Source: a virus (taxonomy: Duplodnaviria; Heunggongvirae; Uroviricota; Caudoviricetes). Taken from it: 37,940 bases of DNA. Of the stretch, positions 8,209-10,417 are shown one piece after another. The stretch is from the IMG/VR virus record IMGVR_UViG_2859783438_000005; one strand, 5' to 3'. The position numbers and the translations under genes were made by a program. The notes beneath the pieces were generated by a model, which was not told where the DNA came from, did no database searches, and saw only the letters and a program-made list of their open reading frames with translations. Numbering within the stretch: position 1 is the stretch's first letter; the number at the start of each line of letters is the position of its first letter.

Positions 8209-9065
8209 GACGCAAACCGGAAGCGGAAGACAGCGCCCGCGAAAATGGTTTTGACCTTCAGGGCGGCCCTGCCGCCCCTTGGACTCGTGGCAATAACTGT
8301 CCCCGTGTACAGGAAACGGACAACAACGGGACAGAACAGCCGGAAGAACGGCCAGCACCGTGGCCGCAGCTCCCTGACGGCGTTGATGTGGATGAATGGA
8401 TGCGCTCACTGAAACGGCACGAACGCCGGGCGCTGATGCGTTCGCTTCGTGACAAACAGGCAAAAAACAGCAGTGATGAAATGCAGAGCTGGACACAGAG
8501 CCGCAAACAGCAGCGGCCTTTGCCTGATAACCACGAATTACTCGCTAAAGAATGGCGGGAGTCTGCTGAATCTCTCGGCCTGCATATCGGTGAACAACAG
8601 ATGCAGCACCTGTTACGGGGCGGCAGTCTGTACGTTGACGGCAGCATCATTGCACCGCAGGGATTTGAAATTGTACGCAAACCGGATACCCGCCCGGACA
8701 GCCGAATCACGCAGCTCTGGCAGCGCCTGAGCCGTAATCATGGCGTAAGCAGCACGGAGATCCGCCATAACCCGGTCGCCAGCTATCTGACACAGCTGGG
8801 GGCATCAGACCCTGAAGCCGCCGCACGCCTGGCATCCACACTTCAGCAGGACCAGAACACCATGAAAACACCCGTTACCGTGCTTTCTGACATGCTGCGC
8901 GCCATCCGCGACGCAGAGCACGCACAGAGAATCAGTGAAACCACTGAACGCGCCCGCCGCAAAGCAGACCTGCTGCGGGGTGGCCTGACCAGTGGAAACA
9001 AAAAACAGACAGAAACGGGACTCACGAATCCCGTAAATGAGCAAAAAACGCGCAGCGATATATGA
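8175..9065 (+). CDS. hypothetical protein overlapping the 3' end of A in another frame (start uncertain; could be a frameshifted A extension)
   Basis: 296-aa track ORF from a GTG with no clear RBS; charged, Gln/Arg-rich; internal Met candidates exist. Confidence 0.35.
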   Translation: MCTHPDNWKLVRRKPEAEDSARENGFDLQGGPAAPWTRGNNCPRVQETDNNGTEQPEERPAPWPQLPDGVDVDEWMRSLKRHERRALMRSLRDKQAKNSSDEMQSWTQSRKQQRPLPDNHELLAKEWRESAESLGLHIGEQQMQHLLRGGSLYVDGSIIAPQGFEIVRKPDTRPDSRITQLWQRLSRNHGVSSTEIRHNPVASYLTQLGASDPEAAARLASTLQQDQNTMKTPVTVLSDMLRAIRDAEHAQRISETTERARRKADLLRGGLTSGNKKQTETGLTNPVNEQKTRSDI

Positions 9066-9114
9066 AGCGCGCACAAAACAGGCAAAAACGGGATTTCAGA
9101 ATCCCGTAAACGAT
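9008..9114. promoter_or_regulatory. two palindromic iteron-like sites upstream of parM (candidate parC-like centromere/operator)
   Basis: aaacgggactcacgaatcccgtaaa and aaacgggatttcagaatcccgtaaa, each an inverted repeat around cggga/tcccg, about 70 bp apart, the second about 30 bp upstream of the parM start. Confidence 0.4.
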
Positions 9115-9141
9115 TAATTAATCAACATAAGGAAAAGCGAC

Positions 9142-10101
9142 ATGAAAATTTGTATCGACGACGGCTCCACCAACATCAAGCTGGCATGGACTGAGAACGG
9201 CGAACGCCGCAACGCCATCAGCCCGAACAGCTTCAAGTCGGAATGGTCTGCGCCGTTCGGTGGCATGCAGCCCGCGAACTACATGCTTGATGGCGTGCGC
9301 TATGGTTTTGATCCGGTCAGCGATCGCTTTGTCCAGACAACCGACACGCAATACCAGTACAGCGATGTAAATGTCATTGCCATTCATCACGCGCTGGTCA
9401 AATCAGGCATCACGCCACAGGAGGTGGATGTGGTTGTCACCCTGCCACTGAGCGAGTATTTCGACACAAACGCACAGCCGGACATGGCCAACATCAACCG
9501 CAAAAAAGCGAACGTTATGCGCCCGGTGGAGTACCAGAACGGCGAAGCATTCACTATCCGTAACGTGCGGGTTATGCCTGAATCCATTCCGGCTGGCTTT
9601 AAGGCACTGGCTGACATGAGTCCGTTTGAATCCCTGCTGATTGTGGATTTGGGCGGAACCACGCTGGATGTGGCAAAGGTTCAGGGGCAACTGGCAGGTA
9701 TCAGCCAGGTGTTTTGCGATCCACACGTAGGCGTTTCTCTGATGGCCGATGCCGTACTGTCGGTGATGGCCACTAACGGTATGCGCACCAGTCACCACAT
9801 CGCCAATACCATTATCGAACATCGCCATGATGAAGCCTGGCTGCGCCAGCACATCCACAATGACGCGCATTACGCCAGCCTGATGGCGGTTATTCGTGAA
9901 AAGGAAGAAACACTGAAACAACGCGTGATCCGCGCGCTGGCGGGTTTTTCGGGTTACGGGCGGGTGATGGTTGTCGGTGGAGGGGCGGAGATTGTGGCAC
10001 CCGCTATCCGCGAAGCCTGCGGAGTTAATGCGACTTTCATCGCGGACGGGGTGCCACAGTTTGCTCTGGTTAATGGGCTGTACGCAATGGACAAGGAGTA
10101 A
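9142..10101 (+). CDS. parM: ParM/StbA-family actin-like ATPase
   Basis: 319-aa ORF; alignable along its length with plasmid R1 ParM as I remember it (MKICIDDGSTNIKLAW vs MLVFIDDGSTNIKLQW; YSDVNVIAIHHAL; VMPESIPAG; LIVDLGGTTLD; VMVVGGGAE; LVNGLY). Confidence 0.85.
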   Translation: MKICIDDGSTNIKLAWTENGERRNAISPNSFKSEWSAPFGGMQPANYMLDGVRYGFDPVSDRFVQTTDTQYQYSDVNVIAIHHALVKSGITPQEVDVVVTLPLSEYFDTNAQPDMANINRKKANVMRPVEYQNGEAFTIRNVRVMPESIPAGFKALADMSPFESLLIVDLGGTTLDVAKVQGQLAGISQVFCDPHVGVSLMADAVLSVMATNGMRTSHHIANTIIEHRHDEAWLRQHIHNDAHYASLMAVIREKEETLKQRVIRALAGFSGYGRVMVVGGGAEIVAPAIREACGVNATFIADGVPQFALVNGLYAMDKE

Positions 10102-10105
10102 ACCA

Positions 10106-10417
10106 ATGACGACACCAACCAGACGGATAAGTTTCTATCTGAAGCCTGCGGCCGTCAAGAACGAAAGCGAAGCATGCGCCTGGCTGGGCAGCCTTACACC
10201 AGAAGCCCGCAAAAGCGGCCAACGCGTGGCTTTTCTGGCCGGGCTGGCACTTCTGAAAATGAATCCAGCAGAGGCTTACCGACTGGCTGCATGGGCTGAC
10301 GATGAGGCGTTATCGGTGACACAAACCAGGACAGAACGCCCCGTGCCACAGCCAGTACCAACCGCACAGATAACCAGTCAGATAGCAGGGAATATCCGGG
10401 CATTATTTCCTGAATGA
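10106..10417 (+). CDS. parR: ParR-like small DNA-binding adaptor (putative)
   Basis: track ORF 9971..10417 trimmed to Met MTTPTRRISFYLKPAA preceded by an AAGGAG RBS; 103 aa; N-terminus resembles R1 ParR (IAFKLNPD...AALTAGLALY...SLFPKE vs ISFYLKPA...VAFLAGLALL...ALFPE); immediately downstream of parM. Confidence 0.6.
   Translation: MTTPTRRISFYLKPAAVKNESEACAWLGSLTPEARKSGQRVAFLAGLALLKMNPAEAYRLAAWADDEALSVTQTRTERPVPQPVPTAQITSQIAGNIRALFPE

What the first reader, a model, noticed from the sequence alone, without database searches (positions are those of the whole stretch)
9008..10417. ParM/ParR-like actin-type partition module with upstream palindromic iterons inside an integrating P2-like prophage
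ORF 9142-10101 aligns along its length with plasmid R1 ParM/StbA (actin-like ATPase), and the next ORF (10106-10417) resembles ParR. Upstream are two 25-bp palindromic units (aaacggga...tcccgtaaa) about 70 bp apart, the expected look of a parC-like centromere/operator. Type II partition systems belong to plasmids and plasmid-prophages; in a chromosomally integrating P2-like phage a segregation machine has no obvious job. It also sits in the A-to-Q accessory position that P2 fills with the non-essential tin/old genes. Possible roles: a plasmid-like phase of this phage, a repurposed cytoskeletal function during infection, or an exclusion/defence role.
Basis: partly seen in the sequence, partly recalled or inferred. 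Interest (0 to 1): 0.65.

Follow-up and report, generated by a model that had tools for sequence, protein, structure and literature searches.

The report
ParMRC partition cassette in P88-like prophage
A P2-type prophage integrated in an E. coli chromosome carries a complete, well-conserved actin-like (ParM/ParR) DNA-segregation cassette of the kind plasmids use; it is real, but it is already annotated and mentioned in the literature, and nobody has tested what it does for the phage.

Summary
ORF 9142-10101 is a ParM (Pfam StbA_N 2.7e-82 plus the ParM C-terminal domain 1.3e-68). It aligns full length with R1 ParM (E 8.5e-93, 46.7% identity). ORF 10106-10417 is a ParR/StbB-family adaptor (PF10784, 2e-23; its profile finds pB171 ParR, 2jd3). 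Upstream lie two 42-nt repeat units 73 bp apart (8999-9040 and 9072-9113), each with a CGGGATT-N4-AATCCCG palindrome found nowhere else in the window.

The host element is a phage P88-like (Xuanwuvirus, P2-type) prophage integrated beside btuC. The module occurs in 1325 of 5426 complete E. coli genomes, almost always on the chromosome.

The genes are under strong purifying selection (parM dN/dS 0.05). Repeats, parM and parR are gained and lost together as one cassette at the gpA edge of the A-Q hotspot. About 12% of relatives with the same gpA carry defence genes there instead.

Rousset et al. [quoted passage not shown] The finding is therefore known, but its function is untested.

My best reading is that ParR bound to the repeats, with ParM filaments, positions or segregates extrachromosomal circular phage genomes after infection or induction. 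The CGP3 AlpAC system is the precedent. Stable plasmid maintenance and exclusion are the rival readings.

The parts
8999..9040 (+). Repeat unit 1 of the putative centromere/operator (parC-like). It has an A-rich part followed by the palindrome ACGGGACTCACGAATCCCGT (9015-9034). It overlaps the last codons of gpA.
   Evidence: It is a 42-nt direct repeat of 9072-9113, 81% identical, spacing 73. The pattern is unique in the window, 2 matches against 0 expected. The same unit and spacing are kept in the Hafnia relative L011. It is lost together with parM and parR in par-less relatives.
9072..9113 (+). Repeat unit 2. It has an A-rich part followed by the perfect 8+8 palindrome ACGGGATT-TCAG-AATCCCGT (9088-9107). 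It ends 29 nt before the parM start codon.
   Evidence: The arms CGGGATT/AATCCCG are conserved across 54 distinct upstream variants, while the 4-nt spacer varies.
9142..10101 (+). parM: actin-like partition ATPase, 319 aa.
   Evidence: Pfam StbA_N plus ParM C-terminal domain. R1 ParM E 8.5e-93 with the motifs DDGSTNIK, VMPES, DLGGTTLD and GGGAE conserved. dN/dS is 0.053 over 70 distinct alleles. The ORF is intact in 90 of 93 ParM-retrieved loci.
10106..10417 (+). parR: adaptor, 103 aa. It has an N-terminal DNA-binding domain (residues 1-66), a hypervariable linker (67-92) and a conserved C-terminal NIRALFPE motif.
   Evidence: PF10784 2e-23. The profile hits pB171 ParR 2jd3. The C-terminal motif is shared with IncF and IncK plasmid ParR. 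dN/dS is 0.13 for the N-terminal domain and 0.65 for the linker. Two types (T1, T2) share an invariant PTRRISFYLKP.
6244..9065 (+). Context: replication initiator gpA (P2 A family). In this window it is split into two ORFs (6244-8208 and 8175-9065) by a 1-nt deletion at 8171.
   Evidence: Pfam Phage_GPA 3.2e-131; consecutive phrog_6857 and phrog_91 matches; intact 940-aa gene in P88 and O26 RM8426; deletion located.
10418..12029 (.). Context: the variable cargo part of the A-Q hotspot, between parR and portal gene Q. Here it holds three small + strand ORFs of unknown function.
   Evidence: This interval falls into at least 25 sequence clusters among 55 related loci. The ORFs have no PADLOC hits. 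They match DUF7446, phrog_1578 and phrog_24897.

Best explanation
This is a complete type II (ParMRC-type) partition cassette. It consists of a bipartite centromere/operator-like repeat, the actin-like ATPase ParM, and the ParR adaptor.

It is a discrete module at the gpA-proximal edge of the A-Q hotspot of P88-like (Xuanwuvirus) P2-type phages. It is prevalent there but dispensable.

Proposed mechanism (inferred, by analogy with R1 ParMRC and with AlpAC of prophage CGP3):
1. ParR dimers bind the two palindromic units upstream of parM.
2. The conserved C-terminal tail of ParR captures the ends of ParM filaments.
3. Growing filaments push or position the DNA molecules that carry the repeats.

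The prophage is normally integrated, so the relevant substrate would be the extrachromosomal circular phage genome present after infection or induction. P2-type phages replicate by gpA-driven rolling circle to monomer circles, which are also the packaging substrate.

The cassette has no recognisable promoter of its own and no + strand terminator separates it from gpA. It is therefore probably transcribed with the early replication operon. It would spread replicating genomes through the cell, or let a transient unintegrated state be inherited by both daughter cells.

Shown here: the identity of the parts, their selective maintenance, and their co-inheritance as one unit.

Inferred: ParR binding to the repeats, co-transcription with gpA, and the biological role.
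For: - Identity: ParM and ParR family matches. ParM nucleotide-binding motifs are conserved.
- ParR layout: it has the expected three parts, namely a conserved N-terminal domain, a hypervariable linker, and a conserved C-terminal motif NI(R/Q)xxFPE. IncF and IncK plasmid ParRs share that motif.
- Selection: parM dN/dS is 0.053 and the ParR N-terminal domain 0.13. ParM is intact in 90 of 93 loci.
- Repeats belong to the cassette: in nine loci with the same gpA (about 96-97% DNA identity over the 5' two-thirds) that lack parMR, homology stops at window 8957-9018. Both repeat units disappear together with the genes, in four different junction types.
- Repeat conservation: the repeats and their 73-bp spacing are kept in a Hafnia relative whose ParR is 74% identical. 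Both ParR types share the same predicted DNA-reading strand and the same palindromes.
- Architecture: the two-cluster layout upstream of parM parallels R1 parC.
- Old phage lineage: plasmid ParMs reach about 52% identity at most among the 5000 best-scoring plasmid records. ParR has no tblastn hit in true plasmids.
- Expression: no sigma-70-like promoter was found in 8800-10600, and no + strand terminator lies between gpA and parM.
- Extrachromosomal form exists: the same phage is integrated in one strain (100% identity over the 12 kb compared) and is a 34.5-kb circular replicon in another.
- Precedent: CGP3 AlpAC is early-induced, binds sites upstream of its own operon, and is needed for efficient phage DNA replication.
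- Packaging: P2-type packaging uses covalently closed circles (PMC2231350, and general knowledge of P2).
Against: - Only two repeat units are present, against ten iterons in R1. No ParR family member is known to me to work with such a minimal site.
- On the minus strand each palindrome plus its T-run looks like an intrinsic terminator. The hairpins are about -10 kcal/mol on either strand.
- The whole upstream region is 95-98% conserved, so footprinting does not single out the palindromes.
- The cassette is dispensable. Of 74 loci retrieved through gpA, 9 lack it and 4 carry truncated parM.
- A burst-type lytic cycle has no obvious need for segregation.
- Absence of a promoter hit is weak evidence.
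- The ParR structure prediction was poor (pLDDT 58.7), so the RHH fold is not confirmed.
- In this particular window gpA and Q carry frameshifts, so this copy may not replicate at all.
Confidence: 0.55

Rival explanations
1. Facultative phage-plasmid. The cassette lets P88-like phages persist stably as low-copy plasmids, as an alternative form of lysogeny. This is the suggestion of Rousset et al. 2022.
For: Rousset et al. make this suggestion. A phage-sized 34,461-bp circular replicon was assembled as plasmid pZ1323PEC0009-2, while the same phage (100% identity over the 12 kb compared) is chromosomal in another strain. Two phage records with genome-project accession numbers (CP025923, CP025874) may also derive from host genome assemblies (origin inferred from the accession style, not checked). 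The cassette is a full plasmid-type partition system under purifying selection.
Against: In complete E. coli genomes, 1477 of 1479 places are chromosomal. All members keep an integrase. The only replication function seen is gpA rolling-circle replication in the early operon, which is repressed in P2-type lysogens (general knowledge of P2). PLSDB reports no replicon type for the circle. A circle in an assembly can be excised, replicating phage DNA from a spontaneously induced subpopulation.
Confidence: 0.2
2. Lysogen-expressed exclusion or incompatibility function. ParR and the repeats (with or without ParM) interfere with incoming phages of the same kind, or with plasmids that use related ParMRC systems. 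They would act like the defence systems that occupy the same hotspot.
For: The cassette sits in the gpA-Q hotspot. Relatives without it carry PD-Lambda-5-like and PDC-S20-like (KAP NTPase) genes at exactly this place. R1 parC is known to express incompatibility (title of reference 9). The ParR C-terminal motif resembles that of IncF plasmid ParR, which leaves room for cross-talk.
Against: There are no PADLOC matches and no recognisable promoter for lysogenic expression. The gene orientation matches the early operon. The plasmid ParR N-terminal strands differ (RKCSFYIYP and RRCSFELFP against RRISFYLKP), so shared centromere specificity is unlikely. Defence does not explain the very strong conservation of a full filament-forming ParM (dN/dS 0.05).
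Confidence: 0.12
3. The palindromes are not a centromere. They are tandem minus-strand intrinsic terminators (or mRNA hairpins) that insulate the early/replication operon from leftward transcription. The real ParR sites would be elsewhere, for example in the A-rich motifs.
For: The terminator scan calls both units on the minus strand: an 8-bp stem with 4 G-C pairs followed by a T-rich tail. The T-runs are kept in Hafnia. In unit 1 the window's T-to-C variant keeps a G-U pair only on the minus strand.
Against: The common variant AATCCTG breaks a minus-strand pair but gives a G-U pair on the plus strand, and L093 gives conflicting strand signals. The stems are weak, about -10 kcal/mol. Terminators here would not protect parMR itself. 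The arm sequence is conserved rather than merely the ability to pair. The units vanish together with parMR. The position just upstream of parM matches every known type II locus.
Confidence: 0.15
4. It is a functionless relic of an old plasmid-phage recombination that is simply hitch-hiking with the phage.
For: The cassette is dispensable. Of 74 loci retrieved through gpA, 9 lack it and 4 have truncated parM.
Against: parM dN/dS is 0.053 over 70 alleles. ParR shows domain-specific constraint. The ORFs are intact in about 95% of loci. The cassette is conserved in Hafnia.
Confidence: 0.03

Closest known systems
ParMRC (parA/stb) of plasmid R1/R100 and related IncF/IncK plasmid loci (type II partition)
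   Same: The gene order is the same: repeats, then parM, then parR. ParM aligns full length (46.7% identity to R1 ParM; at most about 52% to the plasmid ParMs retrieved) with its catalytic motifs conserved. ParR is in the same Pfam family, PF10784, as the ParRs encoded next to plasmid parM genes, and shares their C-terminal N-I/A-x-x-L/M-F motif. The repeat region upstream of parM is bipartite, like R1 parC, which has two iteron clusters flanking a core.
   Different: It sits on an integrating phage, not a plasmid. The repeat region has two palindromic units 73 bp apart instead of 2 x 5 direct 11-bp iterons, and no recognisable promoter lies in the core. ParR is shorter (103 aa against about 117-140 aa), and tblastn does not find it in true plasmids. 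The lineage is distinct, with a gap between at least 95% and at most about 52% ParM identity.
AlpAC/alpS of Corynebacterium glutamicum prophage CGP3 (Donovan et al. 2015, PMC4446434)
   Same: It is an actin-like filament protein plus a co-transcribed DNA-binding adaptor, encoded by an integrated prophage. The adaptor sites lie upstream of the operon itself. The proposed substrate is excised circular phage DNA. It is the functional precedent for a role in phage replication.
   Different: The host phylum and phage type are unrelated. AlpC is a distant actin-like protein, whereas the protein here is a close ParM. The gene order differs: alpA comes before alpC, while here parM comes before parR. 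No experiments exist for the P88-type system.
The 'putative plasmid partitioning system' (StbA + Plasmid_stab_B) catalogued in the gpA-gpQ hotspot of E. coli P2-like prophages (Rousset et al. 2022, PMC9122126); annotated ParM/partition protein of phage P88 (NC_026014)
   Same: It is the same module. The region is 98% identical in DNA to P88. It has the same Pfam pair and the same locus. The prevalence also agrees: about a quarter of P2-like phages there, against 1325 of 5426 genomes here.
   Different: Nothing essential differs. The details added here are the repeat architecture, the three-part ParR layout and its two types, the selection measures, the boundaries of the cassette, and its alternation with defence genes.
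Partition systems of plasmid prophages (P1 parABS, N15 sopAB)
   Same: These are also phage-encoded partition systems acting on circular or linear phage DNA (general knowledge).
   Different: They are type I (ParA Walker ATPase) systems on phages whose prophage is an obligate plasmid. The element here is type II and its prophage integrates.

Membership tests
Type II (ParMRC) partition locus | Actin-like ATPase of the ParM/StbA family with intact nucleotide-binding motifs | tested here: met
   Pfam StbA_N 2.7e-82 plus ParM C-terminal domain 1.3e-68. R1 ParM 1mwk E 8.5e-93 over the full length. The motifs DDGSTNIK, VMPES, DLGGTTLD and GGGAE are conserved.
Type II (ParMRC) partition locus | Small ParR adaptor gene immediately downstream of parM, in the ParR/StbB family | tested here: met
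   The ORF starts 4 nt after the parM stop codon. PF10784 2e-23. Plasmid ParRs encoded next to parM are in the same family. The profile hits pB171 ParR 2jd3 at E 0.0083.
Type II (ParMRC) partition locus | ParR N-terminal ribbon-helix-helix fold | tested here: inconclusive
   The AlphaFold2 monomer gave mean pLDDT 58.7. Helices were predicted at 20-29, 32-52 and 54-61, and the N-terminal strand was not modelled. Foldseek gave no meaningful match. An RHH domain is an obligate dimer, so a monomer model is a poor test.
Type II (ParMRC) partition locus | ParR C-terminal peptide that binds ParM | tested here: inconclusive
   The C-terminal motif NI(R/Q)xxFPE is conserved behind a hypervariable linker and is shared with IncF and IncK ParR. 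A C-terminal helix 86-100 is predicted. Binding itself is not testable here.
Type II (ParMRC) partition locus | Centromere parC upstream of parM, made of multiple ParR-binding repeats that also act as the operator | tested here: inconclusive
   Two 42-nt units with palindromic cores lie directly upstream. They are unique in the window and are inherited together with the genes. However, there are only two units, they are palindromic rather than direct 11-bp iterons, no promoter was found, and a terminator reading is possible. ParR binding was not tested.
Type II (ParMRC) partition locus | Located on, and stabilising, a low-copy extrachromosomal replicon | tested here: not met
   1477 of 1479 places in complete E. 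coli genomes are chromosomal. This window is integrated beside btuC. Rare phage-sized circles do exist. Stabilisation cannot be tested here.
P88-like (Xuanwuvirus) P2-type phage | P2-type gene order (int, C, early operon with gpA, Q-P, capsid, tail genes) with high identity to P88 | tested here: met
   The query region is 98% identical to P88. The window is collinear with P88 and with the O26 RM8426 prophage. Pfam Phage_GPA, portal, GPD and integrase are present.
Anti-phage defence system (PADLOC catalogue) | Match to a known or candidate defence protein model | tested here: not met
   There are no PADLOC hits for ParM, ParR or the three downstream ORFs.

The most novel reading that the evidence does not exclude
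P88-like phages are present in about a quarter of E. coli genomes. They may use an actin-like ParMRC machine on their own excised or incoming genome circles. That could mean organising rolling-circle replication and packaging in space, as a small temperate phage with its own cytoskeleton in the manner of CGP3 AlpAC. It could instead mean surviving as a heritable plasmid-like state when integration fails. Either way they would be facultative phage-plasmids working with a minimal two-site centromere.
Probability: 0.35. Interest if true: 0.6.

Novelty: already known. Interest (0 to 1): 0.35.

Why it matters
The module is very common: 24% of complete E. coli genomes carry it. It is strongly conserved, yet no study found here has tested what it does.

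A demonstrated role would matter in either direction. If it positions or segregates phage DNA circles, it would extend actin-like phage cytoskeletons from one actinobacterial prophage to a major group of enterobacterial phages. If it supports a plasmid state, it would blur the line between integrating phages and phage-plasmids.

It would also provide a naturally minimal ParR-centromere pair for mechanistic work. As a scan finding, however, it is a correct re-discovery of an annotated and published feature.

Tried and rejected
- ParR structure: the AlphaFold2 monomer built from a 29-sequence alignment was poor (pLDDT 58.7), and Foldseek against the PDB gave only noise. A single-sequence PDB search with ParR found nothing. 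Only the profile search reached 2jd3.
- Phylogenetic footprint of the upstream region: 66 distinct sequences are 95-98% conserved everywhere, so no contrast appears between the palindromes and their flanks.
- Covariation between ParR type and palindrome variant: none. Both types share the same N-terminal strand and the same palindromes.
- Strand-specific compensatory changes, as a test of hairpin against protein site: the signals conflict.
- Promoter scan of 8800-10600: no hit. My manual inspection found only poor -35/-10 candidates.
- Genome-contig scan with ParM: only three close loci, and no distant relatives reached.
- PADLOC and Rfam: nothing for this region.
- 'Recent capture from a plasmid' is rejected. 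Plasmid ParMs reach about 52% identity at most among the records retrieved, and ParR has no hit in true plasmids.
- 'Fixed core gene of the lineage' looked true in the phage database, where 14 of 14 records carry the module. IMG/VR loci retrieved through gpA rejected it: 9 of 74 lack the cassette and 4 of 74 carry truncated parM.
- I could not determine whether the strain with the 34.5-kb circle also has a chromosomal copy. Its assembly did not appear among the listed hits of the E. coli genome search.
- Literature searches for a functional study of this module found none.
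Full report
**1. What is in the sequence**

ORF 9142-10101 (319 aa) and ORF 10106-10417 (103 aa) are at the stated coordinates. Both are on the + strand, each has a good ribosome-binding site, and they are 4 nt apart.

The first ORF is a ParM.
- It matches Pfam StbA_N (2.7e-82) and the ParM C-terminal domain (1.3e-68) end to end.
- It matches PHROG 691 'partition protein'.
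- It aligns with the solved R1 ParM over residues 2-316 (E 8.5e-93), at 46.7% identity.
- The phosphate-binding and adenosine motifs are conserved: DDGSTNIK, VMPES, DLGGTTLD and GGGAE.

The second ORF belongs to PF10784 (Plasmid_stab_B, 2e-23). The ParR proteins encoded next to parM on IncF and IncK plasmids are in the same family. A profile of 29 relatives finds pB171 ParR ('StbB', 2jd3) as its best PDB match (E 0.0083).

Upstream there are two 42-nt direct repeat units, 8999-9040 and 9072-9113. They are 81% identical and 73 bp apart. Each contains a palindrome: ACGGGACTCACGAATCCCGT and ACGGGATTTCAGAATCCCGT. The pattern occurs nowhere else in the 37.9-kb window, against zero matches in 100 shuffles.

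**2. What the element is**

The window is E. coli chromosome. btuC lies at 1-981, followed by an integrase (2472-3599), a C-type repressor, an early operon ending in gpA, then Q/P, capsid, lysis and tail genes, gpD, and a PIN-domain cargo gene.

In STEC relatives the same prophage lies between btuC and ihfA. It is 98% identical to Escherichia phage P88 (Peduoviridae, Xuanwuvirus). In that phage the two genes are already annotated 'plasmid segregation protein ParM' and 'partition protein'.

The module matches 1325 of 5426 complete E. coli genomes. Of 1479 places, 1477 are chromosomal.

It is not a stray plasmid fragment.
- The order gpA-parM-parR-cargo-Q-P recurs in isolated or induced phages and in IMG/VR contigs.
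- It also recurs in a Hafnia relative whose ParR is only 74% identical.
- True plasmid ParMs reach about 52% identity at most. Among the 5000 best-scoring plasmid records, only six reach 95% or more. All but one are the same records that hold the phage-type ParR, and the one inspected (pZ1323PEC0009-2) is the phage itself.
- Phage ParR has no tblastn hit in any true plasmid.

**3. Is it functional?**

Across 70 distinct parM alleles, dN/dS is 0.053. ParM is full length in 90 of 93 loci retrieved by ParM similarity.

ParR shows the layout expected of a ParR.
- The N-terminal domain is conserved (dN/dS 0.13), with PTRRISFYLKP essentially unchanged across the 51 distinct proteins seen.
- The linker at residues 67-92 is hypervariable (dN/dS 0.65).
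- The C-terminal motif NI(R/Q)xxFPE is conserved. IncF plasmid ParR (NIKNLFPDDE) and IncK ParR share it. In R1 the C-terminal tail of ParR is the part that binds ParM (general knowledge of the family).

Two ParR types exist (T1, 103 aa; T2, 104 aa) at about 50% identity. They share identical first 18 codons, and they occur with the same palindromes.

**4. Do the repeats belong to the par system?**

Footprinting across 66 distinct upstream sequences was uninformative, because the whole region is 95-98% conserved. Three other observations are informative.

1. The Hafnia relative keeps two 42-nt units at exactly 73 bp. The core GGGATT-N4-AATCCC is conserved, while the outer bases and the spacer differ.
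2. Among 54 variants the arms CGGGATT/AATCCCG are the constant feature and the 4-nt spacer varies. The half-site centres are about 11 bp apart. That spacing would suit two RHH dimers on one face of the helix (inference).
3. I retrieved loci through gpA instead of ParM. Of 74 loci with enough flanking DNA, 61 have parM, 4 have truncated parM and 9 have none.
   - In those nine, which show four different junction types, homology to the window ends at 8957-9018. Both repeat units are therefore lost together with parM and parR.
   - The right-hand boundary lies just after the parR stop codon.
   - The cassette therefore spans roughly 8999-10417, and the repeats are part of it rather than part of gpA.
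   - Unit 1 merely supplies the last codons of gpA. The par-less variants end gpA differently, at 920-941 aa.

The rival reading stays open. On the minus strand each palindrome plus its T-run scores as an intrinsic terminator. Hairpin stability is about -10 kcal/mol on either strand.

The architecture differs from R1 parC, which has two sets of five 11-bp direct iterons around a 39-bp promoter core (PMC2241845). It also differs from an IncF parC made of T-rich 10-11-bp repeats. It does share the bipartite layout upstream of parM.

**5. Place in the phage genome**

The interval between parR and Q falls into at least 25 unrelated sequence clusters among 55 loci. This is the gpA-gpQ hotspot of Rousset et al. 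2022.

The par cassette occupies the gpA-proximal edge of that hotspot. In par-less relatives with about 96-97% identical gpA DNA, the same place holds PD-Lambda-5-like genes, a PDC-S20-like KAP NTPase, or unknown genes.

In the phage database, the 14 records whose gpA is at least 80% identical are exactly the 14 that carry ParM and ParR. The other 368 gpA-positive phages, at most about 46% identical among those listed, have neither.

The cassette is therefore specific to one gpA lineage. Within that lineage it is prevalent (about 82% intact) but dispensable.

**6. How it probably works**

No sigma-70-like promoter is detected in 8800-10600, and no + strand terminator separates gpA from parM. 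The genes are co-oriented with gpA. The simplest model is co-transcription with the early replication operon, although this is weak evidence.

P2-type phages replicate by gpA-initiated rolling circle. Their packaging machinery uses covalently closed circles (PMC2231350, and general knowledge of P2). A pool of plasmid-like monomer circles carrying the repeats therefore exists after infection or induction.

By analogy with R1 ParMRC, ParR bound to the repeats would cap ParM filaments, which would push those circles apart. There is also a functional precedent in the integrated prophage CGP3. Its actin-like AlpC and adaptor AlpA are early-induced, bind sites upstream of their own operon, and are needed for efficient phage DNA replication (PMC4446434).

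The benefit could be better spatial organisation of replication and packaging. It could also be inheritance by both daughter cells during a transient unintegrated state.

I give this reading 0.55. The identity of the parts is near certain; the role is inferred.

**7. Rivals**

- *Stable plasmid lysogeny (0.2).* This is Rousset's suggestion. It is supported by pZ1323PEC0009-2, a 34,461-bp circular replicon that is the whole phage. The same phage (100% identical over the 12 kb compared) is chromosomal in strain Z1323HEC0067. Against it: 1477 of 1479 places are chromosomal, an integrase is always present, and no plasmid replicon is typed.
- *Exclusion or incompatibility (0.12).* The hotspot location and the defence-gene alternates suggest it. 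Against it: no PADLOC hit, no own promoter, and plasmid ParRs with different N-terminal strands.
- *Palindromes as terminators rather than parC (0.15, a sub-hypothesis).*
- *Relic (0.03).* This is contradicted by the selection data.

**8. Novelty**

The module is annotated in RefSeq and GenBank.

Rousset et al. [quoted passage not shown] Their locus tables list StbA + Plasmid_stab_B arrangements.

The PhiSM paper lists the gene as a 'fitness' factor. I found no functional study.

The finding is therefore a correct re-discovery. This analysis adds six things:
- the cassette boundaries;
- the repeat architecture and its conservation;
- the three-part ParR layout and its two types;
- the selection measures;
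- the link to one gpA lineage;
- the alternation with defence genes.

**9. This particular copy**

Relative to all 95 related loci held at the time, the window has single-C deletions in C-runs at 8171 and 12102. The first splits gpA into 6244-8208 and 8175-9065. The second truncates portal Q.

Either this prophage is defective or the assembly has homopolymer errors. parM, parR and the repeats are intact.

**Verdict**

The feature is already known at the descriptive level, its function is open and easy to test, and interest is moderate to low (0.35).

Noticed in passing
window 8171 and 12102: Single-C deletions in C-runs (CCC to CC; CCCCC to CCCC) split gpA into two ORFs (6244-8208 and 8175-9065) and truncate portal gene Q (12030-12974, with a remnant ORF at 11929-12099). 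Both are unique to the window among 96 related sequences. Either the prophage is defective or these are homopolymer sequencing errors.
   Followed up: partly
window 24240-27334 and 27894-28499: The tail-fibre and tail-fibre-assembly segment is inverted relative to phage P88. It lies next to a serine DNA invertase (Resolvase + HTH_7). This is a Gin/Cin-type host-range switch caught in the opposite orientation.
   Followed up: partly
window 10478-11438: The hotspot cargo in this copy consists of three small + strand ORFs: 174 aa with no family, 79 aa DUF7446/phrog_1578, and 61 aa Cys-rich and zinc-ribbon-like (phrog_24897). None has a PADLOC hit. Given their position they are candidates for an uncharacterised accessory or defence function.
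   Followed up: partly
L117, L120, L139, L168 (IMG/VR loci), about 6700-9900: Relatives with about 96-97% identical gpA DNA lack the par cassette. At the same place they carry PD-Lambda-5-like genes (methyltransferase + ATPase), a PDC-S20-like KAP NTPase, or two- to three-gene cassettes with no family match.
   Followed up: partly
window 10106-10160, compared with L004 4501-4555: ParR exists as two types about 50% identical that share identical first 18 codons. DNA homology between the types breaks immediately after the predicted DNA-reading beta strand. This suggests recombination that swaps the rest of ParR while keeping the site specificity.
   Followed up: partly
window 35603-37105 and beyond: A 500-aa PIN-domain protein follows gpD. 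In relatives it is followed by ogr and a hok/gef toxin gene just before ihfA. This is cargo at the right end of the prophage.
   Followed up: no
window 1174-2469: Between btuC and the integrase lie a coiled-coil DUF1640/CCDC90-like ORF (with weak PADLOC coiled-coil hits to LmuB and ZorA models) and a 104-aa ORF. The window has about 250 extra bases (1904-2153) relative to the O26 RM8426 prophage.
   Followed up: no
L005 (NZ_CP148288.1) and NZ_CP148378.1 2671850-2683854: The same phage (100% identity over 12 kb) is a 34,461-bp circular 'plasmid' in a cat isolate and is chromosomally integrated in a human isolate whose strain name has the same prefix. This pair could be used to test for a plasmid state.
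   Followed up: partly
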